64,000 nt of DNA, taken from positions 41,666 to 105,665 of the forward strand of contig CAMDGV010000002.1 in NCBI GenBank assembly GCA_945898055.1, given 5' to 3'. Below are positions 19,283 through 42,959 of this stretch, piece after piece; position 1 is the first letter of the stretch, and every line of letters starts with the position of its first letter. The notes under the pieces were generated by a model. That model was not told the DNA's origin. It made no database searches and was given only the letters and a program-made list of their open reading frames with translations. This DNA comes from Akkermansia muciniphila (lineage in GTDB: Bacteria; Verrucomicrobiota; Verrucomicrobiia; Limisphaerales; UBA9464). Both the position numbers and the translations under genes were made by a program.

Positions 19283-20866
19283 CTACGCGCTGGCAAGCCC
19301 GCTCTCAGAGGGAACAAAGAGGCCGAGGCCAAAGTGGGCACCGTAGCCTAGTGCGAATGGACCTGGGCGTTGATCAGGAAAGGTGATGGTGAACACTGCC
19401 CCGCTGTCGCGGCCGCGGCATCCTGCTCCGTTTTTGCGTCCGGTTTGAAATTGCAATGAGCGCAGGCTGCGTTCACCGAATTGATACGGGCGCTCCCTCT
19501 CGTGGATCTGCTGGATTTTGGCATCCGCACCGTGCCCATGCAGGGCGAGCAGTCGCAGCAGGTCGTGAGCGGCGGAGCCATTTTGCCAGCCATTATCCGC
19601 GTCTATTTTCGGCCTGCCATCGCGGAATGTTTTGGCGTATCGGGTGGACACGAAGGGCGTGGCGGAGCGCCAGATCTTCGCCGGGCGGACAAGCGCGCAG
19701 TCCGCGAAATCACCGAGCTGGCCGATGCCTTGGAGGACGAGGCGAATATCATGTCCGCCGTGGCCCCAGACTTTGTTGAGTCGGCGCAGCGCGAGGCAGG
19801 CTTCTTCATCGAAGCCCATCTCGGCCCAGATGGTGATGTGAGTGACTGAGTCGCGCGGCCCATTTGCTTCGCAGAAAATGTGTGCGTGCTGATGCTGGGC
19901 AGCGAGCGGTTTGCCATTCGCATCGAGGCCAGTGAAAACGGATGCGCGGCCCTTGCCTTGGTCAGACCATTTGCAGAGTGCATCATGCACGCGGTCGCCG
20001 ATGGAAATCGCCTGCGTGATGCTCGGCGCGACGGTGCTGGTGATGGCGTAGCGGGCTACGGTGAGCAGCGGGCCTGTGCGTGCAGGACGCGGGCGGGGCG
20101 CGGGAGCGAAGGCATTTTCCGGGCGGGTGTAGTTCACGAAGGCCGCGCCGGGCGGGAGATTCCAGCCCGCAGCTTGCAGGTCGCCCGTATCGGCGTGGAG
20201 TGCGGCGAAGAGGTCGTCCGGCAGCTTGGGCAACTTCCTCCTTCGCTCGGCGGGTGTGAGTTTTGGGTCGAGGGCGGCTTCCGCCTTCGCCATGAAGTCA
20301 TCGCGCCATTCGTCGTAGGCAGTCGGGAGCATCGGAGCCAGCAGGCTGACAAGTTCAGTTTTTTGCGGAAGTGATGTGCCTTCCGCGAGAGGCGTGGCAT
20401 TAGCCTCAATGGTTGTGATGCCATCGAGCACACGCGCTTCCACGAGGCTTTCCGCTCTCCCGAAGTAGCCGATGCGATTAGCGAGAATGCGCAGGGCGTC
20501 GAGTTCCGCTGGCGTCAACGCAACGTCCCACGCGACCAGAATCGATCCGTTTTCCGGGAGTTGGATGAAGGTATCGAATACCTTGGTGGTCTTCTCATTT
20601 TTCCCTTCGTTAAACGGCAGGTAGTGCCGCGTGTGGCTGGTGCTAGCGCGGGGCAGGCGGAAGCTCGGCGGCTGACTGAGCGCGTTCACCAGAGAGCGCA
20701 CAGTTTCTTCCGGGATTTCGCGTGCTTTCAGATACCACGTCGCGATGAGTGCGCGGACGATGCGCCACGGTGCAGGCGGCCATTCGACAGCTCCTTCATT
20801 GACGTGACGCCCCCACGGTGTCGCGTGGTACCGGCCAGCCGGGAAGCTGAGTTCGAGGACGGTCAT
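19283..20866 (-). CDS. csb2: Type I-G (I-U) Csb2, a Cas5-Cas6 fusion-type protein
   Basis: The track ORF is 19283-21079. The conserved N-terminus MTVLELSFPAGRYHATPWGRHVNEGAVEWPPAPWRIVRAL begins at the ATG at 20866, 5 nt after the csb1 stop. This matches the Csb2 pattern (..grY.At.......EWPP.P.Rl..AL). Confidence 0.85.
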   Translation of the reverse strand: MTVLELSFPAGRYHATPWGRHVNEGAVEWPPAPWRIVRALIATWYLKAREIPEETVRSLVNALSQPPSFRLPRASTSHTRHYLPFNEGKNEKTTKVFDTFIQLPENGSILVAWDVALTPAELDALRILANRIGYFGRAESLVEARVLDGITTIEANATPLAEGTSLPQKTELVSLLAPMLPTAYDEWRDDFMAKAEAALDPKLTPAERRRKLPKLPDDLFAALHADTGDLQAAGWNLPPGAAFVNYTRPENAFAPAPRPRPARTGPLLTVARYAITSTVAPSITQAISIGDRVHDALCKWSDQGKGRASVFTGLDANGKPLAAQHQHAHIFCEANGPRDSVTHITIWAEMGFDEEACLALRRLNKVWGHGGHDIRLVLQGIGQLGDFADCALVRPAKIWRSATPFVSTRYAKTFRDGRPKIDADNGWQNGSAAHDLLRLLALHGHGADAKIQQIHERERPYQFGERSLRSLQFQTGRKNGAGCRGRDSGAVFTITFPDQRPGPFALGYGAHFGLGLFVPSESGLASA

Positions 20867-20871
20867 AGAGG

Positions 20872-24350
<3,479 letters not shown>

Positions 24351-24359
24351 GGCAGAATG

Positions 24360-26867
24360 TCAGTTGGTGGTGGCTGCATTTACGGCGGACGCGCGGGCGT
24401 CGGCGGCACGCAGGATTGTTTCGAGATAAGAGAGGCGGAATGGGCCAAGGCGGTCGCGGAGGGCAACGGCGCGGGCAAGCCAAGAAGGGCCGTGCTCACC
24501 CGCGCCCATTTTCATAAAGCTGAGGTCGAGTGTGACAGCGGGTGTAGTAATGTCGCCGATAGCGACGGCTGGGAGTGTGTCGCCGTGCCAGATGCCGCGA
24601 GCGAAGAGTCGCTCCTCGCCGCCTGGCACCGGTTCGTTTGGCAGCGAGCGAATGGAGAGACGGACTTTCCCGTGGTGTGCCGCAATGAGATAAGCAACGA
24701 GGTCACGCTCGGGAGCATCGGGCGGCCCGGCAAGCAACCAGGCCAGAGCGGAAGCGAGTTCGTGGCGGAAGCCGGGGCGTTTGCATTTGCCGTTTTTGTT
24801 TTTCGATTTTGCCCAAAGATTGCCTTCACGGGGCGGCGCCTCGCCGTCGCAAAGCATTCTCTGAAACTCGCCGTGCGCCTTTCCGACATCGTGCCACAGC
24901 GCGGCGATGCGGAGTGTCGCGGTGTCTGCCGCTGAAAGCAGGATGAAGGCGGAAATGGAGTCGGTTTCCTCGATGACCTTTCCTGTGTGCTCGGCGAGCG
25001 ACTGCCAATCTCTCGTGAAACTGCTCCCGTTTCCATCATGAGAATCGGCACTCTCGTCCGGCGGACGGTGAATGGTGAGCGATTGAGGTTTCGGCTCACC
25101 GGTCCAGCCGAGGCTGTCCTCGTAGCCACCGCAGTCCGCAGCGACGAGATAGACAGCGCCGGGACGAGCCCTCTCTGCCTTCTTCCATTCTTTTTCGAGT
25201 GGGTTCCACTGCCATGCACGGGGCTTCTTTTTCGGATCGAGGAACTTCGCTGCATCGCCGATGGAAACGCGGCAGAGTTCTCCCCGCATGGGCTGCGGTT
25301 CGCTCGTTCTAGGAGATTCGTTCTCCGCGATGTCGCGCCAGAAGAACTGCACATCGTTGTCGTCGCTGTCGCGGATGTAGCGGGAGATGTCGAGATCCTG
25401 CCCGCAGATGTCCGGCGTCGTATCGAACAAATCCACGAGGTCGCGGCGGCGGATGACGGGACGGACAACGGGGATTTCCTGGACGATGATTTCGCGCAAA
25501 GTGCGCGGGCAGGCATCAGTGAGCTTCTGAAGTTCCTCGCTGGCTTTGGTAAGTTCGTCCTTTGTGTAAGGCAGGAGCAGTTCGCCTTTCGCGTCTGGCT
25601 CAATGTTCACCCAGAGAATTTCCGCGTCTGAAAACTCCGCGCGGCGGTTGCAGCGGCCCATGCGCTGCACGAGCGAAGACCACGGCGCGAGTTCGGTGAT
25701 GAGCAGCCGCGCCGAGACATCCACGCCAGCCTCGACGGCCTGAGTGGCGATGACGATGCGGTCGCCGGTTCCGAAAAGAAGCGCCTCGTGCTTCGCTCGG
25801 TCTTTCTGGCGGAAGCGCGAGTGGATCAGGGCGACGCGCTCCGGGGCGCAGAGTGGCGGCAGTGTTTGCTTGCCTTTCTTTTCTCCCGTTGTGAGTGCTT
25901 CAAAAATCGCCCTCGCCCGCGACACGCGGTTCACGATGACAAGCGTGAGCGTGCCGGATGAATGCGGATTTTCGAGAAGCGCGAGGTGGCGTTTGGCGAC
26001 AAGCTCCGCGAGTTGCTTCGCGTAGTCGTCTTTCGTTGTGGTGCTGAGCACGAGCGGTGCCGGTGCGTCTTTGAGCGGTGCTGGCGACAGCCTCTTTTTC
26101 GCGGTGATTAGTTCATGCGGCCTGCCGCTGGATTCCTCGGCGGGATTGAGTTTGAGGGGGAGCCAGCCGCCATCCGGAACCGGATGATCCACGGTGGCGA
26201 ACCGCTTCTGCTCCAGCGTGGCGCTCATCCACCAAGTCGGGCAGATCCCGTGCGTTCGCCATTCCTCGCGAGCACGGAAGCCGTCGAGCTGTGCGCTTGT
26301 CTCCACGCCCACGCCCATCAACTGCGTCTCATCCATCACCCAAAGCGCGTCATTATTCAGCAAGCCGAAGTGCATCGGCCAGCGGTAGCGGCTCATGCCG
26401 TAGCCGCGATTGAGGGCGCGGGAGAGGAGCATGTCCTGCGTACCGATGAGGATGGCTTCGCGCTCAGGGTGGAGATCCCATTCGCCCGCGTCTTCGCCGC
26501 CCATGAGGATGTGAAGGCCGACTTTTCCGTCATGCGACTCCTTCTCGTCCCAAAGTAGGCCGTGGGCTTTGAGCCATTTCTCCACTTCATCGCGCGTCTG
26601 CTCTACGAGCGTCCGCATCGGCAGGCAGTAGACGAGACGGCGAGGCCAGGCAGGGTCTTTAAGGACGACGCGATTCCACATCCACGCGAGGACGACGGCT
26701 GCGGTCTTGCCGAGGCCGGTGGGGATGTTGATCAATCGCGAGTGGCATGCCGCGCCGGTATTCGGTAGATCAGTCTCACCAAGCGCGAGGCGGCATTGAT
26801 AGTCGTATGGCGAGTGGCTTCCGCCGGTAGCTGTTTTGAAAAACGCTGTGTAATTGGTGGCGCTCAT
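24360..26867 (-). CDS. cas3: Type I-G Cas3 helicase-nuclease with a C-terminal HD domain
   Basis: 835 aa. Helicase motif I PTGLGKT, motif II VMDETQL and SAT. The C-terminal HD domain reads LWHDVGKAHGEFQ ... FRHELASA ... AAHHGK. A C-terminal HD is the known I-U/I-G arrangement. Confidence 0.9.
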   Translation of the reverse strand: MSATNYTAFFKTATGGSHSPYDYQCRLALGETDLPNTGAACHSRLINIPTGLGKTAAVVLAWMWNRVVLKDPAWPRRLVYCLPMRTLVEQTRDEVEKWLKAHGLLWDEKESHDGKVGLHILMGGEDAGEWDLHPEREAILIGTQDMLLSRALNRGYGMSRYRWPMHFGLLNNDALWVMDETQLMGVGVETSAQLDGFRAREEWRTHGICPTWWMSATLEQKRFATVDHPVPDGGWLPLKLNPAEESSGRPHELITAKKRLSPAPLKDAPAPLVLSTTTKDDYAKQLAELVAKRHLALLENPHSSGTLTLVIVNRVSRARAIFEALTTGEKKGKQTLPPLCAPERVALIHSRFRQKDRAKHEALLFGTGDRIVIATQAVEAGVDVSARLLITELAPWSSLVQRMGRCNRRAEFSDAEILWVNIEPDAKGELLLPYTKDELTKASEELQKLTDACPRTLREIIVQEIPVVRPVIRRRDLVDLFDTTPDICGQDLDISRYIRDSDDNDVQFFWRDIAENESPRTSEPQPMRGELCRVSIGDAAKFLDPKKKPRAWQWNPLEKEWKKAERARPGAVYLVAADCGGYEDSLGWTGEPKPQSLTIHRPPDESADSHDGNGSSFTRDWQSLAEHTGKVIEETDSISAFILLSAADTATLRIAALWHDVGKAHGEFQRMLCDGEAPPREGNLWAKSKNKNGKCKRPGFRHELASALAWLLAGPPDAPERDLVAYLIAAHHGKVRLSIRSLPNEPVPGGEERLFARGIWHGDTLPAVAIGDITTPAVTLDLSFMKMGAGEHGPSWLARAVALRDRLGPFRLSYLETILRAADARASAVNAATTN

Positions 26868-26891
26868 AGTTTCGGGGAGTCGAAGAATTGC

Positions 26892-27437
26892 TCAGGCTTC
26901 CGGCGTTTCGGCGTGAGCGAGGCGGTCGCGCCAGATGTCCACGAGCGGTTGGAGGTCGCGACGGTCGGCAGCTTCCAGCGCGGTGAAGTATTCGGCGCGA
27001 CCGGATTCGGTTTGCGGGGCGAGTTCCACGCGGGGCAGATCGAGGGCGTAATTGCGCATGAGCACGGGGACTTGGAACTGCTGCGGAGAATCCAACCGTC
27101 CCACCGTCACGACGATGTCGCGCCCGCGGCCCGCCCATTCCGGCACGAGTTCGCCCGCGATTCGGCGGTGCAAGTCGAGCGACAGATGTTCGTCGAGCGG
27201 CGCGGCGGCAAAGGTCTCCTGCCCGGAGAGGGCGAGTTCGACGAGGGCGACCCGCTCGGTCAGCAGTGAGGCTAGTTCTGCGTAGCGGGTGGCGTTGCTT
27301 GGGCGAGTATCTCGCGAACCTTCTCCACCGGCACCGGTTCCCTCTCGAAGGCCATGCTCTGGGCCACATCGAGCGGGAGCGCCTGCCAGCGCTGGAGGTT
27401 GTCCTGCCAAGTGATGGTTGGGAGTGCCGTCGGACAT
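26892..27437 (-). pseudogene. Fic/DOC-like (mobile-mystery-protein-B-like) gene remnant, frameshifted and lacking the catalytic motif
   Basis: The C-terminal part reads LSLDLHRRIAGELVPEWAGRGRDIVV...GRAEYFTALEAADRRDLQPLVDIW. It resembles Fic flanks (LH..lf..v..WAG.yR ... Y..AL.aAd.gd..PL..f), but no HPFx(D/E)GNGR motif exists in any frame. After MSDGTP the annotated frame is low-complexity. The +1 frame gives the protein-like TITWQDNLQRWQALPLDVAQSMAFEREPVPVEKVREILAQ, which implies two frameshifts. Confidence 0.35.
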
Positions 27438-27775
27438 GGCTATTTTGCGAGTGGCGAGGTACGAGCGGCGGAGGTTTTGGAGGTGGGCGAGGCGGAATCG
27501 GCCGAGGAGGCCAATGGGAAACCACGAAGAGCCAAAAGATTCCTCAAAAATCATACCGAGAATGATGCCCTTTCTTAATCGTAATTCAGCCTTAATAATT
27601 TCTCCGATAAGGTAAATCATTAATTTTACCGCACTGAGTCCGCAAGAACCGCTAGACGCGGACCCTCCGGTGCCGAAAATGGGGAAGTCGGAGAATGCAT
27701 TCATTTGCGCGAGACTGGCGGAGGGGGACGGACAATGGCGGTCCTACCCACCCGATGGGTAAAAAAATACTGCGC

Positions 27776-28275
27776 TTACCCAGCCGCCAGAATGGCCTCC
27801 GCAGAGCGCCGAATCCTCCGCTTGAGTTCCGCGGGCTCCAGCACCCGCGGGTGAGCGCCCAGCTCAATATTCAGCGTTCAATTTCCTCCAGCCTGCCGAG
27901 TTCGAGCCGCAGCTCAATCGTCCCGCCAGGGAGTTGCTTGATTTTCTGCGAGGGATGCCGGTTCCGTTCGCCGACCAAGCGCGCGGCGAAATCATCGAAT
28001 GCAATCCAGACCTTGAAACGACCATTCGTGGAGAACACGCCGAGGCTCTCGCTCAGATGCTTGGTGATGGAGAAATCCGGCGGCCTGCGAAACCGCATCC
28101 GCGAGAGCTCAAAGGTGTGCAGTTGCGAACGGACGAGGTAGTGGGCAAAAAGAGACCACTGCTGGCCGATGCACGCGAGATAGTAGGGCTGCACACGCCT
28201 GGCCTCGTAACCCGAACTGCCCAATTATCGATATTCGAAGGCGAGTTTTTCCCCCGTCAAAAAGCAATTTCCTAT
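27776..28275 (-). pseudogene. WYL-domain transcriptional regulator pseudogene (WYL plus C-terminal extension domain)
   Basis: The read-through translation is ...GEKLAFEYR*LGSSGYEARRVQPYYLACIGQQWSLFAHYLVRSQLHTFELSRMRFRRPPDFS...FKVWIAFDDFAARLVGERNRHPSQKIKQLPGGTIELRLELGRLEEIER*ILSW/(frameshift)/GAHPRVLEPAELKRRIRRSAEAILAAG*. It carries a TAA at 28225-28227, a TGA at 27871-27873 where W is expected, and one frameshift near 27860. No convincing HTH was found upstream. Confidence 0.7.
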
Positions 28276-28663
28276 CAGTTTCGTTTCAAGACACGCTAAG
28301 ACTTTTCGCGATGGGCGACCCAAGATAAGTTCCAATGGTTGGCAGCAAGGGTCTAGCCCGGAAGACCTACTCCGTTTGCTGGCCCTCAACCTAAAGTGGC
28401 AGGGAGCGAGGATTCGCCGGCAAATTCCGGAACGGGACCTTCCATTCCAGTTCGGCAACCGCACTGCGATCTCTACAGTTTCAGAGCATTCGTCACAAAG
28501 GAATGGGGAGTCGTGGACACGATAGAGGTGCTTCATTTGTCATCGAGTTTCCCGAACCCGTGAACGGGCCTACTGCTGTAGGATATGCAGCTCTTTTTGG
28601 CCTCGATCTATTCGTCCCTGTTTTGAATCTATCCTCCGCAACCAACATCGGGGAAACCCTAGA

Positions 28664-31000
28664 TTGATTGTTTTATCGGCTGTTTGGGTGTATCTCGAGA
28701 ACGTGCCCACAAAATTCAAGAAACGCCCTCGTGAAAACGACGGCGGACTCGGCCCTCTCTTTGACAGGTTGGGGACAAATGAATCCCAAACAGAAAAAAT
28801 TCTCACCGAACGGGATTTATCACTGGCCGCTAGCCCAAAACCGGCGCCAACCACGACTCCTCCACCGCTATCGATTGACCCCACTCCAAAGCCAGTCGAC
28901 TCAAGATTCGTGACTCTGCCCAGTCATCTAGGTCTGCCGAATTCCAATAATATTCAATCGTCAACCAACGATGTCAGGGGTGAAAACTGCCAACCAATTA
29001 ATACTGCTGGTCAAGGTAAACCCATCTTCGAACGGGCCGTTGAAACCCTAAGGAACGAGGGAGTGGGCCGCCCTAAACCAGATACCACCGCCGTCCCAAC
29101 GGGAGACTCTCGATTACCGGCGCGGATGCTCAACGAGTTTGTCTATTGTCCTCGCCTTTTTTACTACGAACACGTCGAGGGGATCTTCGTTGAAAGCGTG
29201 GACACAATTCGAGGCTCTGCAATACACAAGAGGGTTGATTCCGGTTCAGGGGCCCTTCCGGCGCCAGCAACTCTCAGTCAGTCAGCGACTGAAACAAATG
29301 GGGGGCCCAACAATGCGGAGGCAGGAGAGGCCTCAACCATTCATTCGAGAAGTGTTACTCTAGGCTCAGAACGTCTCGGAGTAATCGCAAAACTTGACTT
29401 GGTCGAAATCGACGGATTCAAGGAAGACCGAGGAGCTAGCACCCAGGAAATAGCCCGAGCAGTCGTCCCGGTTGATTACAAACTAGGACGACCACGAGAA
29501 GGAGCGGAGGCCAACGAACTCTGGCCAACCGACCAAATGCAACTTGGGGTGCAGATTCTGGTGCTCCGCGAAAATGGTTATACGTGCTCTGAGGGCGTAA
29601 TCTATTATCGAGAAACGCGGCAGCGAGTTCGCTTTGTTTTGGACCAGGAACGGGAGGCATGGGTCCTCGCTCAGATCGAGGCAGCGCGCGCCACCCTGCG
29701 CGGCCCGATCCCTCCGCCATTGGTGGCCTCTCCCAAGTGTCGTCGATGCTCGCTTGCACCTGTCTGTCTGCCGGACGAAACACGCTTGCTCGGCCGTCAA
29801 CCAACCACCATCAATCGCCAAGAAACGCTGCGGGCGCCAGTTCCAGCAGTAAATAGTCCCGGGGAGGCGCTGGACCCTCAGGATGAGGAGAATGAGCAGG
29901 CTACATCGGCAAAGGCGGAGCCGCCTCGTCGATTGATGGCAGCAAGGGACGATAAGCGGGCGTTGTACCTCAATACACCAGGACTTCGGGTGGGGCGCAA
30001 AGACGAAACCATAACCGTCAAAGACGGAGACCAACCAGTAGAAGAAGTCCGCCTGATGGACGTTTCGCATGTAGCCCTGTTCGGTAATATTCAGATCAGC
30101 ACCCAAGCTGTCCAAGCGCTCTGCGATGCCGAGATTCCAGTCACCTACTTCTCCGGAGGTGGGTGGTTCTATGGCATTACCCAAGGCCACGGATTGAAAA
30201 ACGTGTTCCTGCGAATCGAGCAGTTTCGACTCGCCGGCAACAAAGAAATGTGTCTGGGCCTGGCTCGCGCCTTCGTCCATGGAAAGATCCGGAACCACCG
30301 CACGTTACTTATGCGCAACCACGCAGAAGCCCCGACAACCGCTCTCGCCCGACTCAAGTCTGCAGCCACAAATGCATTGAAGGCCGCTAGCCTCGAGGAA
30401 TTACTTGGTGTTGAAGGGGCCGCCGCCGCCGCCTACTTCGAGCAATTTCAAGGGATGCTCCGTCCAGCCGACCCACACGATGATGACATTCCGGGGGCGG
30501 AGGAGATTGGCCCACGGCCAAAACCCCTTTCGTTTGAATTTCATGCTCGGCACCGTCGCCCACCCACTGACCCGGTTAATGCACTCCTTTCCCTAGCCTA
30601 TTCCGTTTTATCCAAAGATTGCACGATCGCCGCTGCCGCCGTCGGATTCGACCCCTATGTTGGATTCTACCACCAACCTCGGTTCGGTCGCCCGGCCTTG
30701 GCCCTCGACCTTATGGAAGAATTTCGCCCACTGATCGCTGAGAGCGTCGTTTTAACTGTAATCAATAACCGGATGGTGACACCGGACAGCTTTGTCTCAG
30801 CAGGTCAGGCCGTAAACCTCACCCCAGCAGGCCGCAAGAAATTTTTCCTCGCCTACGAACAACGTATGAGCAGCCTGCTCACCCACCCATTATTTGATTA
30901 CAAGGTTAGCTACCGTCGCGCTCTGGAACTACAAGCACGCATCTTGGCCAAAGCGTTGACCGGCGAGATCCCTGAGTACATTCCCCTTCTGACCCGCTAA
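28664..31000 (+). CDS. cas4/cas1: Cas4-Cas1 fusion (Cas4g/Cas1g), the type I-G adaptation protein
   Basis: The Cas4 RecB-like part has MLNEFVYCPRLFYYEH, DYKLGRP and CRRCSLAPVCLPDE (the four-cysteine set). The Cas1 part runs ALYLNTPGLRVGRKDETITV... to ...ALELQARILAKAL. Conserved domains begin near 29110, and an alternative ATG lies at 29126. The first ~150 aa are Pro-rich and unrecognisable. Confidence 0.88.
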   Translation: MIVLSAVWVYLENVPTKFKKRPRENDGGLGPLFDRLGTNESQTEKILTERDLSLAASPKPAPTTTPPPLSIDPTPKPVDSRFVTLPSHLGLPNSNNIQSSTNDVRGENCQPINTAGQGKPIFERAVETLRNEGVGRPKPDTTAVPTGDSRLPARMLNEFVYCPRLFYYEHVEGIFVESVDTIRGSAIHKRVDSGSGALPAPATLSQSATETNGGPNNAEAGEASTIHSRSVTLGSERLGVIAKLDLVEIDGFKEDRGASTQEIARAVVPVDYKLGRPREGAEANELWPTDQMQLGVQILVLRENGYTCSEGVIYYRETRQRVRFVLDQEREAWVLAQIEAARATLRGPIPPPLVASPKCRRCSLAPVCLPDETRLLGRQPTTINRQETLRAPVPAVNSPGEALDPQDEENEQATSAKAEPPRRLMAARDDKRALYLNTPGLRVGRKDETITVKDGDQPVEEVRLMDVSHVALFGNIQISTQAVQALCDAEIPVTYFSGGGWFYGITQGHGLKNVFLRIEQFRLAGNKEMCLGLARAFVHGKIRNHRTLLMRNHAEAPTTALARLKSAATNALKAASLEELLGVEGAAAAAYFEQFQGMLRPADPHDDDIPGAEEIGPRPKPLSFEFHARHRRPPTDPVNALLSLAYSVLSKDCTIAAAAVGFDPYVGFYHQPRFGRPALALDLMEEFRPLIAESVVLTVINNRMVTPDSFVSAGQAVNLTPAGRKKFFLAYEQRMSSLLTHPLFDYKVSYRRALELQARILAKALTGEIPEYIPLLTR

Positions 31001-31013
31001 ATGATGGACCATC

Positions 31014-31304
31014 ATGAGGACCACCTACCTAGTCTGTTACGATATAGCTGACCCTAAACGCCTCCGCCGAGTCTTCAGGACGTGCAAGAATTTCGGAGAC
31101 CACCTCCAATTCTCTATATTCGAGTGCGACCTTAATCCGTCTGAAAAAGCCCAACTTGAAACGTCGTTGCGCGAGACTATCAACGGCTCTGAAGACCAAA
31201 TCATTTTCGTCACTCTGGGCCCCACTGAGGGAAGAGGGTCTCGGGTCATCTCCTCGATCGGGATGCCTTATGTCACCATGAATGCCCCGTGTTTTGTATT
31301 CTAA
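31014..31304 (+). CDS. cas2: CRISPR-associated endoribonuclease Cas2
   Basis: 96 aa, MRTTYLVCYDIADPKRLRRVFRTCKNFGDHLQFSIFECDL... This is the typical Cas2 ferredoxin-fold N-terminus. It lies 13 nt after cas4/cas1. Confidence 0.9.
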   Translation: MRTTYLVCYDIADPKRLRRVFRTCKNFGDHLQFSIFECDLNPSEKAQLETSLRETINGSEDQIIFVTLGPTEGRGSRVISSIGMPYVTMNAPCFVF

Positions 31305-31536
31305 TGCGACTTGCCAGATAGACCCAATCGGTAGTATTTCCACCGAGGCTCTTTGAAATCTGAATCACGCGAGCGCCTAGGTGATCGATAATCCTCGGGA
31401 GGCGCTCGCATGCCGTAAATCATTGTCGAAATACGAACTTTTTTGTTTCGATTAGCCCATTGGTAGTTCCCTAAAACAGAACCGCTCGCATAATCGATGA
31501 AATCTCTCCGCTTTAGTGGCCTCTAAAGTAGGTGCT
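31305..31536 (+). promoter_or_regulatory. Putative CRISPR leader between cas2 and the first repeat
   Basis: 232-bp non-coding spacer directly upstream of repeat 1. It is AT-enriched near the array (ACGAACTTTTTTGTTTCGATTAG...). It contains a perfect 10-bp inverted repeat GCGAGCGCCT (31369-31378) / AGGCGCTCGC (31400-31409). The repeat orientation (3' end GTTGAAGY) supports plus-strand transcription. Confidence 0.6.
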
Positions 31537-34500
31537 ATCTCCGCGCCCTCAAAAGCGCGGCCCCGTTGAAGTACGCTTATTGCCGAGGTCATGGCACAGA
31601 CCGACCGTATCTCCGCGCCCTCAAAAGCGCGGCCCCGTTGAAGTTCGAAATCCAGCGGAGAGCCAGAAGGAGGCGCATACATCTCCGCGCCCTCAAAAGC
31701 GCGGCCCCGTTGAAGTCACAGTCAAGCCCTCAATTCCTTTGATTTTCTTTTGATCTCCGCGCCCTCAAAAGCGCGGCCCCGTTGAAGTATCGGGATCGCC
31801 ACATCAGCAACCGCAACAGGAGTCAGATCTCCGCGCCCTCAAAAGCGCGGCCCCGTTGAAGTAAGTCTGAACGTGATCGTAGTCTCTGGCGTCAGTTGGA
31901 TCTCCGCGCCCTCAAAAGCGCGGCCCCGTTGAAGTCACGCTATTCGACTGGCACTGCGCCGCCGAGGAATGATCTCCGCGCCCTCAAAAGCGCGGCCCCG
32001 TTGAAGTCTCGATCATGCAGGGCCCGTATAGCCCGCACGGCAATATCTCCGCGCCCTCAAAAGCGCGGCCCCGTTGAAGTAACGGCTGAGTTGAGGCGTT
32101 CTGCGACTGATTACGGCGATCTCCGCGCCCTCAAAAGCGCGGCCCCGTTGAAGTTTGTTCATCGGGGTCGCAGCGTCCGTCTTTAAAGATTATCTCCGCG
32201 CCCTCAAAAGCGCGGCCCCGTTGAAGTCGGGCGGGCCTGTATCTATGGAGTCGCTAGCCGAGGCATCTCCGCGCCCTCAAAAGCGCGGCCCCGTTGAAGT
32301 CCGTTGTCTCAGTTGAACGGTGGTGGTCAATGGTGTGAATCTCCGCGCCCTCAAAAGCGCGGCCCCGTTGAAGTATCACGGATTCCATCCAGTTCATAAT
32401 TATCGATGCGATCTCCGCGCCCTCAAAAGCGCGGCCCCGTTGAAGTTCGTGCAAAGAGGCCACCATTGGCTTTGTGAGCACCATCTCCGCGCCCTCAAAA
32501 GCGCGGCCCCGTTGAAGTGGTGTGGGCTCGGTGCGAGAGTACTCTGGAATTTACGATCTCCGCGCCCTCAAAAGCGCGGCCCCGTTGAAGTGAGACTTGT
32601 TTCATTCTGTTTTTTGGCTCGGGTTTTATCTCCGCGCCCTCAAAAGCGCGGCCCCGTTGAAGTACGAAGTGATAGCAATGGACCCACCTTGGGCCTACGA
32701 TCTCCGCGCCCTCAAAAGCGCGGCCCCGTTGAAGTGGGGTCCGCTGAGACTGCTGGTTTTCCTCCAAGTCCAGTCATCGCCGCGCCCTCAAAAGCGCGGC
32801 CCCGTTGAAGTAGCGACGATGAAGCCGCTGTGTTGTCTGCCCTATGGGATCTCCGCGCCCTCAAAAGCGCGGCCCCGTTGAAGTGACGAGGGTGCGATTT
32901 CCACGGCTGAGTCGGCAATGATCTCCGCGCCCTCAAAAGCGCGGCCCCGTTGAAGTACCGACACCAGGACGATGAGCCAATAGGGTGAGGGTCATCTCCG
33001 CGCCCTCAAAAGCGCGGCCCCGTTGAAGTGCGACGCAGAATTTACTCGCATACTTGAACGCCATATCTCCGCGCCCTCAAAAGCGCGGCCCCGTTGAAGT
33101 GTCCTGGCTCATTTTTGCTGGAGCAACAAATGCCCGATCTCCGCGCCCTCAAAAGCGCGGCCCCGTTGAAGTAATTTGCAATCGTTTCCAATCAGGTCCA
33201 TTCTTTGGGTATCTCCGCGCCCTCAAAAGCGCGGCCCCGTTGAAGTCAGTTGGTCCGCAATTGTCCCCCATGATTTACCGCTCATCTCCGCGCCCTCAAA
33301 AGCGCGGCCCCGTTGAAGTGCAGTGCTGTTTCGCGGGATGTATTTGTCCCCATAGATCTCCGCGCCCTCAAAAGCGCGGCCCCGTTGAAGTTTGCAGCCT
33401 ACAAATCAAGCGTCGAAGCCTACAACGCATCTCCGCGCCCTCAAAAGCGCGGCCCCGTTGAAGTTCATCCCCCAGTATGAGGTTTGCTGCTCGCACAACA
33501 CATCTCCGCGCCCTCAAAAGCGCGGCCCCGTTGAAGTGTGCCACAACTCCAGCAATCAAATGATCTCTGTAGTGTATCTCCGCGCCCTCAAAAGCGCGGC
33601 CCCGTTGAAGTACTGGGAGCGAGAATCCTTCGCGAAGAAGTTTGATACATCTCCGCGCCCTCAAAAGCGCGGCCCCGTTGAAGTGTTTGGGTTGGCATAA
33701 TGGTCGTAGCTCATATATTCATCTCCGCGCCCTCAAAAGCGCGGCCCCGTTGAAGTCACTTGTCCAATAGGAGATCGGCCATTCGGCGGTTAATCTCCGC
33801 GCCCTCAAAAGCGCGGCCCCGTTGAAGCCTGGCATGCGTCCGGTGCATGAGTTGCAGTCTATGCGATCTCCGCGCCCTCAAAAGCGCGGCCCCGTTGAAG
33901 CATTGGATGCTCAAAATTACCGTCTCACCTTCAACCCATCTCCGCGCCCTCAAAAGCGCGGCCCCGTTGAAGCCGGTAAATGCAGTCGAGAACTCCTCAT
34001 CGTTTTTAGATCTCCGCGCCCTCAAAAGCGCGGCCCCGTTGAAGCAATTTATCGCGTGAAAACTATAGACGATCTCAATCTATCTCCGCGCCCTCAAAAG
34101 CGCGGCCCCGTTGAAGCTGGTTGCGGCCTCCCCTCCCCTGCCGACGGGGGGCGAGATCTCCGCGCCCTCAAAAGCGCGGCCCCGTTGAAGCTCTAGGTGC
34201 CATATAATTGAATGCGTTGAAACCGACACATCTCCGCGCCCTCAAAAGCGCGGCCCCGTTGAAGCCCATTAGCTCATGCCCCTAATCGTGTTAGGCTCTC
34301 GATCTCCGCGCCCTCAAAAGCGCGGCCCCGTTGAAGCTAACTCTCGTGTCTGTTATCATTGAGGCTTCTTTCATCTCCGCGCCCTCAAAAGCGCGGCCCC
34401 GTTGAAGCACCTATCCCGTCGTGGGTTCACCCGCTCGGAGATAAATCTCCGCGCCCTCAAAAGCGCGGCCCCGTTGAAGCTAGGCTAAGACTCCGCATCG

Positions 34501-36082
34501 TTGTTCGTGGAGTTCGTCATCTCCGCGCCCTCAAAAGCGCGGCCCCGTTGAAGCGCTAGGCGGGCCGCTTGGATTGCGGCTAATTCTGCGGATCTCCGCG
34601 CCCTCAAAAGCGCGGCCCCGTTGAAGCACGGCGTGCAAGAAATTATTGAAAACATCTACTGCCCATCTCCGCGCCCTCAAAAGCGCGGCCCCGTTGAAGC
34701 ATACCTTGCGGGGAAACTCCGCGGAAAAGCCAAGCAGATCTCCGCGCCCTCAAAAGCGCGGCCCCGTTGAAGCTTTCAAGCATCAGTTGACACAATTCAG
34801 GAATTGAGCAATCTCCGCGCCCTCAAAAGCGCGGCCCCGTTGAAGCACCGCTTCTTTAGAACCTTGGGCCGGAGCTTCTCGTATCTCCGCGCCCTCAAAA
34901 GCGCGGCCCCGTTGAAGCGAAGCCAGCCCCATTGCTGGTTAGCTGGTACGTTGGCATCTCCGCGCCCTCAAAAGCGCGGCCCCGTTGAAGCATGGAGAAG
35001 GACGTCTGGGAGAAGAACGGATGGACCTATCTCCGCGCCCTCAAAAGCGCGGCCCCGTTGAAGCAATTAGGACAAGTTGTTTAGCAATGCCGTTTGCAAG
35101 TTATCTCCGCGCCCTCAAAAGCGCGGCCCCGTTGAAGCAAAAAAGTAGGGTAGAGATAGCGGGGAGGGGTATCGAATCTCCGCGCCCTCAAAAGCGCGGC
35201 CCCGTTGAAGCCGCTCACGCCATCAGGTGATGGCCTCAGCGGCCCGCAGATCTCCGCGCCCTCAAAAGCGCGGCCCCGTTGAAGCGGGGCCGCAGCGGCT
35301 GATACTACTCAAGCGGAAGTATATCTCCGCGCCCTCAAAAGCGCGGCCCCGTTGAAGCTCAACGAGGCTCGTATAGAGTTCTCGGGCCGCTGAATATCTC
35401 CGCGCCCTCAAAAGCGCGGCCCCGTTGAAGCCAAACTCATTAGCCCAGCGAGATGCTGGTTTACCGGATCTCCGCGCCCTCAAAAGCGCGGCCCCGTTGA
35501 AGCAACCGAAAAGCCTCCATCCCGTGTTAGGAGATGGAGATCTCCGCGCCCTCAAAAGCGCGGCCCCGTTGAAGCAGGGTGAGCAACTCATTGCGGGCCG
35601 CTACTAAATTTATCTCCGCGCCCTCAAAAGCGCGGCCCCGTTGAAGCTATGTTCATTGTTTTTTATTTTCCCCTTCAACCGAAATCTCCGCGCCCTCAAA
35701 AGCGCGGCCCCGTTGAAGCACGATGCCGGGAGACGGAGACCGAGACGCCGTTTGCGAATCTCCGCGCCCTCAAAAGCGCGGCCCCGTTGAAGCCCAGTCT
35801 CGCGGCTATCACGTTGTCTTCGTCCAAACTATCTCCGCGCCCTCAAAAGCGCGGCCCCGTTGAAGCCCATCGTAGCTAACCAGTCGCGGTTAGCGGACGT
35901 TATCTCCGCGCCCTCAAAAGCGCGGCCCCGTTGAAGCGCGGTGTACGGAGAGTCATTCAGTGCAGCGGTTGCACATCTCCGCGCCCTCAAAAGCGCGGCC
36001 CCGTTGAAGCGATGCTCCAGCGTCCCTCATAATTTGGTCAACCTCAATCTCCGCGCCCTCAAAAGCGCGGCCCCGTTGAAGC
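31537..36082 (+). CRISPR. CRISPR array of 63 repeats (36 nt) and 62 spacers (35-40 nt)
   Basis: I located every repeat by hand. The consensus is ATCTCCGCGCCCTCAAAAGCGCGGCCCCGTTGAAGY, with an internal 6-bp stem CCGCGC/GCGCGG and loop CCTCAAAA. The first repeat is 31537-31572 and the last is 36047-36082. Repeats 1-31 end in T and repeats 32-63 end in C. Repeat 18 (32776-32811) has T4G. All spacers look unique by eye. Confidence 0.97.
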
Positions 36083-36334
36083 ACCGGGGAAATAGGGGTC
36101 AGTGTGCATTTCCTTTCATTTTTGTGTTAAGGGATTTTGTTTGGAGTGATTAAGCAAACGGGTTATGTGATGAAATTTGTGTAAATGTTTTTTCTGTTTG
36201 GTTTTTGTTTTCTGTTTTGGTGATTTCTGGGGCGCTCGATAGCGAGCTAAAACTAGCAGGGGGGCGGCCTGTGAGCCGACAGCTCGCGCCCCTCTGCGGT
36301 CGAACTATTGAGGCTTTCCGCGGACATGGGAGGC

Positions 36335-36615
36335 TCAATTGGGTCGAGGCATCCGGTCCCCAAATTCAATGGCGAAGCGGTTCAGTGCTGCGCTCCAGTT
36401 GGGAATCGGCATCGTCCACTTTTTACTGATCCGATCCAAGGCCATGTAATAGAGCTTGAAGATCGATTCCTCATGGGGAAACACCCCACGATTCTTGCTG
36501 ATTTTGCGCAAGGACCGGTTGACCGATTCAATCGCGTTGGTGGTGTAGATGGCGTGGCGGATCTCGGCCGGATATTTCAGGCGTGACTCGAAGATCAACG
36601 CCGGAGGTCTTAGTC
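36335..36615 (-). mobile_element. IS256-family (Mutator-type) transposase C-terminal stub
   Basis: ...KYPAEIRHAIYTTNAIESVNRSLRKISKNRGVFPHEESIFKLYYMALDRISKKWTMPIPNWSAALNRFAIEFGDRMP matches the IS256 C-terminal consensus (IYTTNaIEslN..lRK.tk.rg.FP...a..Kl.yla...i.kkWt.pi.nW..al..f). The frame closes with a TGA just upstream, so about 300 aa of N-terminus is missing. Confidence 0.8.
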
Positions 36616-36766
36616 ATCTTCGCACCCGAGCCGGTCAAGGCTCGTCCTTTACCCTCTTCTTTCCCCGCAGAACCGATCTCTTGAACTCAGCCAACCCATA
36701 ACTGCAAAAAAAACTCTCTTTCTAGCCTTAGTTCGCAACCGCTGGCTTGCTCAGTTCGGCATTCCG

Positions 36767-38797
36767 TTGAACTATCTCCCCATGATCCGCCCGCTGGTTT
36801 GTGCCTCACTCTTATTGTTTCTCGTCGGCTTTACTGAGCCCGTAAGGGCCGATGCTCAATCCGACACTTTACGTATTGCCTCTCTGGAACGGTTGATTCG
36901 CGACCCAAATCCACGAGTTCGACTAGAAGCTCTTCGTTCCTTAGCTCGCCTCAAGACAGCCGAGTCAGCTCAGCTTGCTCTGCAAGTTCTCGAGTTTCCG
37001 ATGGATCCCACCTTGGATTACGCTCTCTGGCTCACGATCAATGATCTTTCTGAACCGTGGATCGCCGCGCTTCAGTCAGGGCGTTGGGATCCGACCGGCC
37101 GCGATAAAGAACTCGCTTTTGCCCTTAAATCGATTCGCCCCGAACAGGCCAGCCGAGTGCTCGGGAAAGCTCTCGCCGATAATCGGCTCACCCGCGAAGG
37201 CTCAGGACCGTGGATCGAACTGATCGGTGCCGCCGGTGCAGGGGCCGAACTAAGCCTTCTCTATACTCGGTTATTGGAGGATAGCTTCTCACCTGCGGCC
37301 GCCACTCGTGCCCTTCAATCCTTAGGCGAAGCTTCCCGTAACCGTCGCATCCGTCCCACTGGCGATCTCAAAGCAATCCTCAAGCTGATTGGTTCCAAAA
37401 ATCCTGAAGTCCGCGCCGCTGCCCTTCAACTCGCTGGACTCTGGAAATCGTTAAGCCCAACTGAACTTAACCTCGTCGGTCTCGCTGAATCCGATCCCTC
37501 TGACACGGTCAAGGCCACCGCTTTCGATGTCCTTCGCACCTCAGGCGATCCCTCAACTCCTGCTAGCCTCGCTCGACTCGCTACCTCGAAGGATCCATCA
37601 ACCCAAATCCGTGCCGCTCTCGCTTGGGCTGCTCTTGATCTCAATGCCGCTGCTAAGCCCATTGTAGAGGTGCTTAAAACCCTCGATGACGAGTCACGTG
37701 CTATCGACTTTTGGCGGGCCGTTCTTTCCATCAAAGGCGCTGGAAAAATTATTACTAACCTTCTGCCTGAGTCCGGTCTCCCTCCAGCCTCCGCTCGGGC
37801 CGGGGTCCGCGCCGCACGCGAAGGCGGTCGCAGCGACGTCGAATTAGCGAGTGCCATCGCCCGGGCCGGAGGGTTGGCCACAGACGCTCAAGCCTTCACC
37901 ACTCAGTGGATTCGTGATCTCGCTGCCAAAACCGTCGCCTCAGGAGATCCTCTCCGCGGCGAATCCATCTATCGCCGCCCAGAACTGGCTTGCCTGACCT
38001 GCCATGCCATCGGTGGTGCGGGCGGCCGCGTCGGTCCCGATATGACCTCGATTGGTGCGAGTGCCCCACTTGATTACCTTATTGAATCGGTCCTCAAACC
38101 CGACGCCAAAATCAAAGAAGGTTACCACGGCGTAATCGTCGATACCAAGGACGGCCAAACTCTCTCTGGAACCGTGGTACGCGAAAGTGGAACTGAACTC
38201 GTCCTTCGCAGTCCCGCTAATCAAGAGATGGTTCTGCTCAAATCAACCATCGAACATCAAGCCAATGCGACGACCTCGCTCATGCCCGGAGGCCTCATTG
38301 ATGTCCTCAGTGAATCCGAACAGGCTGATCTTTTTGCCTTCCTATCGCGCCTCGGTAAACCCGGCGACTTTGACGCCTCGCGGGGTGGAGTCGCTCGACG
38401 CTGGCGCCTCGCTAATCTCGTCCACACCGACGTACAAAACGGTCAGGGTGACTGGATGTGGTCGGCAAAGGTCACCGATCGACGCTGGACTGAAATTTAT
38501 TCTCGGGTCAATGGAGACTTAACCCGATCTCTCATGGAAGGGGGAACCAAGGCGAATTTTTGGATCTCGAAATTGGCGGTCCTTGCAATGACTGAAATTA
38601 CCCTTCCCCAAGCCGGTCGAGCCAGCTTCTCTCTCATCGCCAATCCCACAACTGAACTTTGGATTGATGGTAAAAAGGTCTCAGGCCCTCTTCAACTCAC
38701 CGCCGGTCTCCATCGGGTCATTGTCAAACTCGATCCGTCTCGGGTTCCCGAGCGTATCCGACTGGAGACCGCCGACGCCTCCTTTAAACTCGACTGA
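36767..38797 (+). CDS. HEAT-repeat / c-type heme-binding domain protein (PVC-type putative heme-binding domain)
   Basis: 676 aa. Signal peptide, HEAT-like repeats (DPNPRVRLEALRSLARL; NPEVRAAALQLAG), and the heme motif CLTCHAIGGAGGRVGPDMTSIG followed by LIESVLKPDAKIKEGY. Confidence 0.7.
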   Translation: MNYLPMIRPLVCASLLLFLVGFTEPVRADAQSDTLRIASLERLIRDPNPRVRLEALRSLARLKTAESAQLALQVLEFPMDPTLDYALWLTINDLSEPWIAALQSGRWDPTGRDKELAFALKSIRPEQASRVLGKALADNRLTREGSGPWIELIGAAGAGAELSLLYTRLLEDSFSPAAATRALQSLGEASRNRRIRPTGDLKAILKLIGSKNPEVRAAALQLAGLWKSLSPTELNLVGLAESDPSDTVKATAFDVLRTSGDPSTPASLARLATSKDPSTQIRAALAWAALDLNAAAKPIVEVLKTLDDESRAIDFWRAVLSIKGAGKIITNLLPESGLPPASARAGVRAAREGGRSDVELASAIARAGGLATDAQAFTTQWIRDLAAKTVASGDPLRGESIYRRPELACLTCHAIGGAGGRVGPDMTSIGASAPLDYLIESVLKPDAKIKEGYHGVIVDTKDGQTLSGTVVRESGTELVLRSPANQEMVLLKSTIEHQANATTSLMPGGLIDVLSESEQADLFAFLSRLGKPGDFDASRGGVARRWRLANLVHTDVQNGQGDWMWSAKVTDRRWTEIYSRVNGDLTRSLMEGGTKANFWISKLAVLAMTEITLPQAGRASFSLIANPTTELWIDGKKVSGPLQLTAGLHRVIVKLDPSRVPERIRLETADASFKLD

Positions 38798-39096
38798 TCG
38801 AAGTAAGCATCGGTCAAGAATCCTAGTTCACTCGCTAGCGAAGGTAGACTCGCCTGAGTCCGGTGGTGGACAGACCTGAGGGGTCGGGTGTTCCCTAGGC
38901 CGAGACAAATCGAAAGAGGATGAACACTGGGTCGCACTCCAGGTTCAGCCATCTGCACTTGGATTTCTGTGAGTCCACACCGTTGCACGGACGGTTCCGC
39001 TGAGCTGAACCGCACAGTTTCTACCCCGGCAGATGGAGAGGGACCTAGGGCTCCGTGTCGGCATAGTTTCCGATACTTATTTTTATCGTAACTTTA

Positions 39097-41010: not shown

Positions 41011-41117
41011 TCTGAAGGTCATGCTTTTGCGACATCAAAAGGCTCTGCACCTCTTCGAATTTATGAGCGACAAATTCTAGCGGTAGCCAAGGAAGCCACC
41101 GCTGTTGCTTACCGAAA

Positions 41118-42275: not shown

Positions 42276-42370
42276 TTCTTTTTTTAGAACAGGGAAGAGG
42301 GCCGCTCTAGACTTTTGGGGTCAGTCCCCAAATTTCAGGGGTGAATTGCTGATTCATTAAAGGAAGAAGC

Positions 42371-42889: not shown

Positions 42890-42959
42890 ACTATTTGAAA
42901 AGCGGCTAAAAACTGACCGATCCAAGTTCAAACAAAGGGTCGTCAAAGGAGACCGTCCA

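What the first reader, a model, noticed from the sequence alone, without database searches (positions are those of the whole stretch)
31537..36082. Array is divided into two near-equal blocks that differ only at the last repeat nucleotide (T in repeats 1-31, C in repeats 32-63)
I checked all 63 repeats by hand. Repeats 31537-33756 all end ...GTTGAAGT, and repeats 33793-36082 all end ...GTTGAAGC, with no intermixing. New repeats are copied from the leader-proximal repeat during acquisition. One substitution in repeat 1 would therefore be inherited by every later insertion. The pattern thus looks like a fossil record of at least 31 polarized acquisitions after a C-to-T change. The C form resembles the common ...TTGAA(A/G)C repeat ending, which fits with C being ancestral and with the leader lying on the cas2 side. 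The variable base would be position -1 of the crRNA 5' handle, next to the spacer. The two halves should then make crRNAs with different handles, which raises the question of whether both load and interfere equally. Two other explanations remain open: fusion or recombination of two arrays, or a PAM-derived last repeat base as in E. coli I-E together with a change in PAM choice.
Basis: partly seen in the sequence, partly recalled or inferred. Interest (0 to 1): 0.6.

Follow-up and report, generated by a model that had tools for sequence, protein, structure and literature searches.

The report
CRISPR array records one repeat mutation
A 63-repeat type I-G CRISPR array carries a single C-to-T change in its last repeat base that arose at the end where new spacers are added and was copied into about 30 later additions; this is a clean natural example of a behaviour already known for CRISPR arrays.

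Summary
There are 63 repeats of 36 nt: repeats 1-31 end in T and repeats 32-63 end in C, with no mixing.

The locus is a complete type I-G CRISPR-Cas system: cas3g, cas8g, cas7g, csb2, a cas4/cas1 fusion and cas2.

Four independent lines place the leader on the cas2 side, which makes the T block the young one:
- The leader is conserved in relatives.
- Degenerate repeats always lie at the far end of relatives' arrays.
- Protospacers carry a 5'-TTN PAM in the + orientation.
- A sister contig has the same leader and T repeats but different leader-end spacers.

C is the ancestral base. More than 400 repeats in relatives end in C. These include a sister strain (Cas2 differs by 1 aa, leader by 2 nt) whose first repeat is ATCT...GAAGC.

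The PAM-derived alternative is rejected. The PAM -1 base is A, C, G or T irrespective of the repeat end. Two T-block spacers have TTC PAMs, and one C-block spacer has CTT/TTT.

The best explanation is a C36T change in the leader-proximal repeat, inherited through repeat duplication for 30 (or 31) later acquisitions.

Stretches of repeat variants were already used to infer this mechanism in 2010. The finding is correct but ordinary. What remains open is a possible recombination or assembly join at the T/C junction, and whether a -1 U handle has any functional effect.

The parts
19283..21079 (-). csb2 (Cas5-Cas6 fusion, the crRNA-processing subunit of type I-G). The ORF is as listed. The true start is probably near 20868, because the family match begins at residue 72 and the ORF overlaps cas7g.
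   Evidence: NCBIfam TIGR02165 cas5_6_GSU0054, E 5e-62
20872..21810 (-). cas7g (csb1)
   Evidence: Pfam Cas_GSU0053 E 9.5e-38; NCBIfam TIGR02570 E 5e-48
21807..24350 (-). cas8g (csx17), large subunit
   Evidence: NCBIfam TIGR04113 cas_csx17, E 2.8e-203
24360..26867 (-). cas3g helicase-nuclease
   Evidence: NCBIfam TIGR02621 cas3_GSU0051, E 2.3e-235; Pfam DEAD, Cas3-like_C_2 and Cas3_HD
29126..31000 (+). cas4/cas1 fusion (cas4g/cas1g). The ORF is open from 28664, but the family match starts at residue 151. An ATG at 29126 gives the N-terminus MLNEFVYCP, and two other assemblies call the gene from this ATG.
   Evidence: NCBIfam NF049935 cas4g_cas1g, E 1e-210, above cut-off; Pfam Cas_Cas4 + Cas_Cas1; gene calls in L014 and L016; sequence
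31014..31304 (+). cas2
   Evidence: Pfam CRISPR_Cas2 E 5.8e-20; NCBIfam TIGR01573
31305..31536 (+). Leader. Conserved blocks are GGCTCTTTGA(A/C)AT, CGCGAGCG, a complementary CGCTCGC about 30 nt later, and a second CCGCTCGC about 45 nt before repeat 1.
   Evidence: Alignment of five leaders. The leader is identical in L014, L015 and L016 and differs by 2 nt in L272.
31537..33756 (+). Young block: repeats 1-31, all ending ...GTTGAAGT, with spacers 1-30 between them
   Evidence: Reproduced in L014, L015 and L016. Spacers 1 and 13 have protospacers with TTC/TTT PAMs in freshwater phage contigs.
32776..32811 (+). Repeat 18, with a private T4G substitution (ATCG...). It was not propagated because it is internal.
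   Evidence: It is absent from the same repeat in L014.
33757..33792 (+). Spacer 31, the junction spacer. It is preceded by a T repeat and followed by a C repeat.
33793..36082 (+). Old block: repeats 32-63, all ending ...GTTGAAGC (the ancestral form), with spacers 32-62
   Evidence: The same ATCT...GAAGC repeat is the first repeat of sister strain L272 and the last repeat of L003. Spacers 49 and 51 have protospacers. An ORF across spacers 57-60 exists as P0008 in an NCBI contig of 149 kb.
36083..36160 (.). Trailer flank. It is AT-rich and not conserved in relatives. It ends where homology with CRISPR-less strains of the same species begins.
   Evidence: Downstream alignment. Homology with L017-L019 starts at window 36158-36161.

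Best explanation
This is the array of a complete type I-G CRISPR-Cas locus in a freshwater Verrucomicrobia-like genome. It is read on the + strand from a leader next to cas2.

In this sub-lineage, a C-to-T substitution arose at repeat position 36 in the leader-proximal repeat. It could have arisen by replication error or during gap-filling of an integration. Every spacer integration duplicates the leader-proximal repeat semi-conservatively, so the T was inherited by all later repeats. The repeats already in the array kept C. The 31 T repeats therefore mark 30 later acquisitions (31 if the founding integration is counted), minus any units lost since.

The substituted base sits at the repeat-spacer junction. 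[quoted passage not shown] It is also predicted to be position -1 of the 8-nt crRNA 5' handle, GUUGAAG(C/U). Acquisition continued with unchanged repeat and spacer lengths, which shows that this base is not needed for correct integration.

Shown here: the pattern, the cas type, the polarity, the ancestral state, and the independence of this base from the PAM. Inferred: the mutational origin in repeat 1, the crRNA processing site, and that both handle forms work.
For: Pattern.

Type I-G gene set.

Polarity:
- Leader motifs are conserved in window, L001, L002, L008 and L264. Downstream flanks are not conserved.
- Degenerate or variant repeats lie only at the cas2-distal end in L001, L002, L003 and L004.
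- Fifteen spacers have protospacers with at most 8 mismatches in 240 viral loci. Ten of these have TT at -3/-2 on the 5' side in the + orientation (P about 2e-9), and there is no motif on the other side. This matches the published type I-G TTN PAM (PMC9638904).
- L016 has the identical leader and T repeats but five different leader-proximal spacers.

Ancestral state: all repeats of relatives end in C. This includes L272, whose Cas2 differs by 1 aa and whose leader differs by 2 nt, and whose first repeat is ATCT...GAAGC.

The same kind of fossil record occurs in relatives. In L002 the loop variant TTTT is confined to the two trailer repeats. L003's last repeat is ATCT against 87 GTTT repeats. 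L001's last repeat is ATTT.

Not PAM-derived: the PAM -1 base is C, A, G or T in arrays whose repeats all end in C. T-block spacers 1 and 13 have TTC as their best PAM, and C-block spacer 49 has CTT/TTT. Cas4 removes the PAM precisely before spacer-side integration (PMC10274657).

Spacer length and GC content do not differ between the blocks.

Repeat fold: a hairpin at positions 5-24, then 4 nt, then 8 nt, identical for both variants. This matches Csb2 cleavage 4 nt 3' of the hairpin (PMC9638904).

Precedent: PMC2886076.
Against: - The T/C junction is present only in the window. Independent assemblies cover repeats 1-21 at most, so the continuity of the two blocks in one genome rests on the window's own assembly.
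- No related array was found that shares C-block spacers, so a common trailer history could not be shown directly.
- The protospacers are diverged (1-8 mismatches) and come from relatives of the phages actually met. PAM -1 calls for individual spacers could therefore differ from the original protospacer.
- No transcript or crRNA data exist.
- The simple sigma-70 scan found no strong promoter in the leader.
Confidence: 0.82

Rival explanations
1. Recombination between two arrays of co-occurring strains. The leader-proximal T block would come from a strain whose array had become T-type, and the C block from a C-type strain, joined by homologous recombination within a repeat.
For: Strains with a C-type first repeat (L272) and strains with a T-type first repeat (L014-L016, window) occur in the same sample series. 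The whole CRISPR-Cas island is strain-variable, so exchange in this region is plausible.
Against: It needs an extra event. It still requires the same mutation and polarized propagation to create a T-type donor array. Spacer length and composition are the same in both blocks. Both blocks hold spacers against the same phage group: s1 and s13 in one, s49 and s51 in the other. No array with T repeats throughout was found.
Confidence: 0.1
2. Assembly join. The window's contig merges the leader-proximal part of one strain's array with the trailer part of another strain's array.
For: Short-read assemblies of this population break inside the array (L014, L015 and L016 all end there). The junction is not reproduced elsewhere.
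Against: All 62 spacers are unique and no spacer is shared between the blocks, so there is no repeat-plus-spacer overlap that would cause a false join. An ORF of the C block is recorded from an NCBI contig of 149 kb, so the C block lies in a long contig. The T block is confirmed next to the same cas2 and leader.
Confidence: 0.04
3. The last 'repeat' base is really brought in with each spacer from the PAM, as in E. coli type I-E. The two blocks would then reflect a switch of PAM preference from ..C to ..T.
For: The base lies at the PAM-proximal end of the spacer. TTC is the commonest PAM among the best hits: 6 of 10 TTN best hits.
Against: In arrays whose repeats all end in C, protospacer -1 is A (L004 s3, L006 s2), G (L006 s1, L006 s8 relatives, the L007/L096 join) or T (L006 s7, window s49). 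T-block spacer 13 has TTC in 13 of 13 hits, and spacer 1 has TTC in its best hit. Cas4-containing systems remove the PAM precisely (PMC10274657). More than 400 repeats in relatives carry C at this position; the only exceptions are three degenerate trailer-end repeats (T in L002, G in L004, A in L268), which a templated base explains better than a selected one.
Confidence: 0.02
4. The array is read from the other end, using the AT-rich 36083-36240 region as leader. The C block would then be young and T ancestral.
For: The downstream flank is AT-rich, as many leaders are.
Against: That flank is not conserved in any relative, and it straddles the island boundary at about 36160. The PAM would fall on the wrong side for a type I system. 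In the minus-strand reading the repeat would lack the type I-G hairpin-plus-12-nt layout that the + strand shows (PMC9638904). Strains differ at the cas2 end. Relatives and a sister strain carry C.
Confidence: 0.02

Closest known systems
Stretches of conserved repeat variants in Escherichia/Salmonella type I-E arrays (Touchon and Rocha 2010, PMC2886076)
   Same: Runs of adjacent repeats share a variant base. The authors read this as proof that the new repeat is a copy of the adjacent, leader-end repeat. The logic is the same as here.
   Different: The subtype differs (type I-E, no Cas4). In type I-E the last repeat base is PAM-derived, whereas here it is templated. The run here is unusually long and clean (31 against 32), and it sits exactly at the repeat-spacer junction.
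Type I-G (formerly I-U) CRISPR-Cas of Thioalkalivibrio sulfidiphilus, Geobacter sulfurreducens and Methanosarcina barkeri (PMC9638904, PMC10274657)
   Same: The gene set is the same: cas3g, cas8g/csx17, cas7g/csb1, csb2, a cas4/1 fusion and cas2. The repeat is 36 nt with a hairpin followed by 12 nt (4 nt plus an 8-nt handle). The PAM is 5'-TTN. The array lies downstream of cas2.
   Different: The effector genes are inverted relative to cas4/1-cas2 in this window. They are co-linear in relatives L264, L268 and L269. The host is a freshwater Verrucomicrobia-like bacterium. No biochemical data exist for this locus.
PAM-derived last repeat nucleotide of E. coli type I-E arrays
   Same: The base concerned is the last one of the repeat, next to the PAM-proximal end of the spacer.
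   Different: Tested here and not met. The base does not follow the protospacer's -1 base.
Degenerate terminal (trailer) repeats of CRISPR arrays (for example PMC12839519, PMC4466440)
   Same: Older repeats keep older or decayed sequence, while the leader end is renewed. Relatives L001-L004 show this.
   Different: Here the old block is not decayed. It is the intact ancestral form, and the derived base is in the young half.

Membership tests
Type I-G CRISPR-Cas system | Signature genes cas3g, cas8g/csx17, cas7g/csb1 and csb2 (Cas5-Cas6 fusion) | tested here: met
   NCBIfam TIGR02621 (E 2e-235), TIGR04113 (E 3e-203), TIGR02570 (E 5e-48) and TIGR02165 (E 5e-62). All are above their cut-offs.
Type I-G CRISPR-Cas system | Cas4-Cas1 fusion plus Cas2 as the adaptation module | tested here: met
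   NF049935 cas4g_cas1g scores 700 bits against a cut-off of 560. Cas2 matches TIGR01573 and PF09827.
Type I-G CRISPR-Cas system | 36-nt repeat with a hairpin followed by 4 nt and an 8-nt 5' handle (Csb2 cleavage site) | tested here: inconclusive
   The layout fits: hairpin at 5-24, CCCC, then GUUGAAG(C/U), compared with PMC9638904. Cleavage itself was not observed.
Type I-G CRISPR-Cas system | 5'-TTN PAM on the protospacer strand | tested here: met
   Ten of 15 best protospacers have TT at -3/-2 (12 of 15 if any hit is counted), P about 2e-9. The -1 base is C, A, G or T.
Polarized repeat-variant propagation (duplication of the leader-proximal repeat) | The variant occupies one contiguous block that starts at the leader-proximal repeat | tested here: met
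   Repeats 1-31 are T and 32-63 are C. The leader side is established.
Polarized repeat-variant propagation (duplication of the leader-proximal repeat) | The trailer-block form is the ancestral one in relatives | tested here: met
   All relatives carry C. Sister strain L272 has ATCT...C as its first repeat.
Polarized repeat-variant propagation (duplication of the leader-proximal repeat) | Strains that share the variant differ by spacers at the leader end | tested here: met
   L016 has the same leader and T repeats but five different first spacers.
Polarized repeat-variant propagation (duplication of the leader-proximal repeat) | Both blocks lie on one molecule with a continuous history | not testable with these tools
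   No reads are available, and no second assembly spans 33721-33828.
PAM-derived terminal repeat base (type I-E style) | The base equals the -1 base of each spacer's protospacer | tested here: not met
   Ten of the 15 best hits disagree. These include window s1 and s13 (repeat T, PAM -1 C) and s49 (repeat C, PAM -1 T).

The most novel reading that the evidence does not exclude
The C-to-U change at handle position -1 may not be neutral. The two halves of the array could yield crRNAs that differ in Cascade loading, stability or interference. Alternatively, the T form could have been favoured at the spacer-side integration site. The published type I-G structure shows the 5' handle contacting only Cas7.1, so either tolerance or a subtle effect is possible. 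This array offers a natural matched set of 31 and 31 guides to test it. Nothing here argues for such an effect. It is simply not excluded.
Probability: 0.1. Interest if true: 0.4.

Novelty: new member of a known kind. Interest (0 to 1): 0.22.

Why it matters
The main value is as a worked example. One base records the order of about 30 spacer acquisitions. Together with PAM side, leader conservation and trailer decay, it gives the array's polarity without any RNA data.

It also gives a small mechanistic hint for type I-G. The base at the spacer-side integration site, which is also handle position -1, can change from C to T without disturbing repeat length, spacer length or continued acquisition. 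[quoted passage not shown]

It does not reveal a new system or a new mechanism.

Tried and rejected
- BLAST of the whole array against the phage and plasmid collections gave only chance-level hits.
- An exact repeat scan of the viral contigs found nothing.
- Look-ups of the downstream HEAT gene and of three array-internal ORFs (33822-34196, 35262-35591, 33756-34025) found no record. P0008, an ORF across spacers 57-60, is listed from an NCBI contig, but its DNA could not be fetched. No second copy of the T/C junction or of the C block was therefore obtained.
- I considered a phage-borne solitary repeat (an RNA anti-CRISPR) for L007, which is a phage-like contig starting with a repeat. I rejected this. 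In the related phage L096, the sequence that follows the repeat in L007 is preceded by a TTG PAM. L007 is therefore an assembly join of an array read to its protospacer.
- The AT-rich downstream flank was rejected as a leader.
- A change in the acquisition machinery between the blocks was rejected. Spacer length, GC content and end-base composition are alike in both.
- The sigma-70 scan found no convincing promoter in the leader. This is uninformative for this phylum.
Full report
**Observation**

A script over the window finds 63 copies of a 36-nt repeat, ATCTCCGCGCCCTCAAAAGCGCGGCCCCGTTGAAG plus one last base, on the + strand from 31537 to 36082. They are separated by 62 unique spacers of 35-40 nt. 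The last base is T in repeats 1-31 (31537-33756) and C in repeats 32-63 (33793-36082), without exception. The chance of such a split is about 2e-18. The only other variant is T4G in repeat 18 (32776).

**What the locus is**

The flanking genes are a complete type I-G (formerly I-U) system.
- On the minus strand: csb2 (19283-21079), cas7g (20872-21810), cas8g/csx17 (21807-24350) and cas3g (24360-26867).
- On the plus strand: a cas4/cas1 fusion and cas2 (31014-31304). The cas4/cas1 ORF is open from 28664, with a likely start at the ATG at 29126.
- A 232-nt leader and the array follow directly after cas2.

The repeat folds into a 6-bp hairpin (positions 5-24), followed by CCCC and then GUUGAAG(C/U). 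The fold is the same for both variants. In the studied type I-G effector, Csb2 cuts 4 nt 3' of the hairpin and leaves an 8-nt 5' handle, and that handle touches only Cas7.1 (PMC9638904). By analogy, the variable base is handle position -1. It is also the base at the repeat-spacer junction, where Cas4/1-Cas2 joins the PAM end of a prespacer (PMC10274657).

**Polarity**

Four independent lines place the leader on the cas2 side.

1. Leader conservation. The cas2-array interval carries conserved blocks in the window, two Verrucomicrobia genomes (L001 UBA1319, L002 Chthoniobacteraceae) and metagenome loci L008 and L264. The blocks are GGCTCTTTGA(A/C)AT, CGCGAGCG, CGCTCGC and a second CCGCTCGC. The sequence after the array is not conserved. 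In CRISPR-less strains of the same species, homology begins only at window position about 36160.

2. Decayed repeats. In relatives, decayed or odd repeats occur only at the cas2-distal end.
- L001's last repeat is ATTT...GCTGAAGC.
- L002's last two repeats have a loop variant plus GAAGT or GAGGC.
- L004's last repeat is heavily degenerate.
- L003's last repeat is ATCT... against 87 GTTT... repeats.

3. PAM side. A spacer of the related array L006 matched L007, which is phage-like (PolB-type exonuclease). Three protein-based scans of the viral collection then gave 239 loci of freshwater phages. An ungapped scan of 346 unique spacers against them plus L007 (240 loci) found protospacers with at most 8 mismatches for 15 spacers. 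Ten of the 15 best hits have TT at -3/-2 on the 5' side when spacers are read on the + strand (12 of 15 if any hit is counted), P about 2e-9. There is no motif on the other side. This is the published type I-G TTN PAM, and it fixes the transcribed strand.

4. Leader-end turnover. Exact-Cas2 look-ups gave three more assemblies of the same population. L014 and L015 repeat the window's spacers 1-21 and 1-12 with T repeats. L016 has the identical leader and T repeats but five different leader-proximal spacers. Strains therefore differ at the cas2 end.

**Ancestral state**

Every repeat in the relatives ends in C, apart from three degenerate repeats at trailer ends: L002's penultimate repeat (T), L004's last (G) and the truncated 16th unit of L268 (A). 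This holds across about 330 repeats in L001-L013 and further arrays in L264-L268 and L273.

The closest case is L272. It comes from the same sample series as L014-L016. Its Cas2 differs by one residue and its leader by 2 nt. Its first repeat is ATCTCC...GTTGAAGC, with a different first spacer. So C is ancestral even within this species-level group, and T is confined to the window's sub-lineage.

**The PAM-derived alternative**

If the last base came in with each spacer, as in E. coli type I-E, it should equal the base before each protospacer. It does not.
- In arrays whose repeats all end in C, that base is A (L004 s3, L006 s2), G (L006 s1, relatives of the L006 s8 target, and the L007/L096 join) or T (L006 s7).
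- Window spacers 1 and 13 (T repeats) have TTC as best PAM. For spacer 13 this holds in 13 of 13 hits.
- Window spacer 49 (C repeat) has CTT/TTT.

Cas4 systems also remove the PAM precisely. This alternative is rejected. One caveat applies: the protospacers are diverged relatives of the phages actually met.

**Mechanism**

A C36T change arose in the leader-proximal repeat, and each later integration copied it, because both new repeat copies are templated by the old first repeat. Thirty-one T repeats mean 30 later acquisitions, or 31 if the change arose in the integration that inserted spacer 31, less any deletions.

Spacer length (36.8 against 36.7 nt), GC content and end-base composition are the same in both blocks. 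Repeat length is constant. Acquisition is still going on with T repeats (L016). The base at the spacer-side integration site is therefore not needed for correct integration.

Relatives show the same kind of record at other repeat positions.

**What remains open**

The junction (spacer 31) is seen only in the window. Attempts to fetch other contigs through array-internal ORFs or the downstream gene failed. An ORF over spacers 57-60 (P0008) is listed from a 149-kb NCBI contig.

Recombination between co-occurring T-first and C-first strains cannot be excluded, and neither can an assembly join. Both still require the same propagation to make a T block. No RNA data exist, so crRNA ends and any effect of a -1 U are inferred.

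**Comparison with what is known**

Runs of conserved repeat variants were reported in Escherichia and Salmonella arrays in 2010 and were read as evidence that the new repeat is a copy of its neighbour (PMC2886076). Trailer-end repeat decay is well documented (PMC12839519; PMC4466440).

The present array is a very clean and long instance in a little-studied subtype, with the variant at a mechanistically interesting position. It is a new example of a known behaviour, not a new kind of feature.

**Verdict**

Novelty is low and interest about 0.2. The most novel reading still open is a functional difference between -1 C and -1 U handles. That is unlikely (about 0.1) and would be of moderate interest.

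Noticed in passing
window 36158-36161 (boundary); region to its left, including 19283-36160: The whole CRISPR-Cas region is strain-variable. Contigs of the same species (99.9% identical from 36161 to 52275) carry other genes at this site instead of the array and cas genes: AbiEi/AbiEii and a HEPN_Swt1/DUF499 protein in L017 and L018, and a reverse-transcriptase fragment in L019. It looks like a defence island with alternative cargo. The left boundary was not located.
   Followed up: partly
L007 1-82; L096 about 18-74: L007 is a phage-like contig that begins with one CRISPR repeat. In the related phage L096, the sequence that follows the repeat is preceded by TTG. L007 is therefore an assembly join between an array read and its protospacer, not a phage-borne repeat.
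   Followed up: yes
L006 (1060-nt metagenome contig, 14 repeats): Ten of its 13 spacers hit one group of freshwater phages (L025-L184), several of them in neighbouring genes. This concentration is what primed acquisition or repeated exposure would give.
   Followed up: partly
L013 43-150: This is the remnant of an array. One repeat has a decayed 5' half, then a spacer, then an ATCT-type repeat cut off after ...CTCAAAAG by sequence holding tandem GAAAATTTAAGGTGACAG units. It may be an insertion into an array.
   Followed up: no
window 32736-32811 against L014 11723-11798: The window has two private differences from L014 within one unit: a C/A SNP in spacer 17 and T4G in repeat 18. This shows that internal repeat changes stay single, unlike the leader-end change.
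   Followed up: yes
window 19283-26867 (-) against 29126-31304 (+): The effector genes (cas3g, cas8g, cas7g, csb2) are inverted relative to cas4/1-cas2 in the window and in L014-L016. In close relatives L264, L268 and L269, all cas genes are co-linear and point towards the array.
   Followed up: partly
window 31305-31536: The leader holds an inverted pair, CGCGAGCG and CGCTCGC about 30 nt later, plus a second CCGCTCGC about 45 nt before repeat 1. These are conserved across distant relatives. They may be a binding site for a host factor or for the integrase. No sigma-70 consensus promoter was found.
   Followed up: partly
L001, L002, L003, L004 array ends; repeat positions 1-3 in all relatives: The first three repeat bases differ by lineage (ATC, GTT, CTC, CCT). 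Trailer repeats keep apparent intermediates: ATC in L003's last repeat and ATT in L001's last repeat. The 5' end of this repeat family evolves fast, and the arrays keep fossils of it.
   Followed up: partly
window 26892-27704 (-) and 27695-28141 (+): A 270-aa ORF with no family match lies between cas3g and cas4/1, and it is also called in L014-L016. Its only hit is a very weak one to 'mobile mystery protein B'. Its role is unknown.
   Followed up: no
OFDN01000184.1 (L003, L009, L010): One 60-kb metagenome contig holds at least 139 repeats of the GTTT-type array (88 + 17 + 34 in three stretches). This is a very large type I-G array.
   Followed up: no
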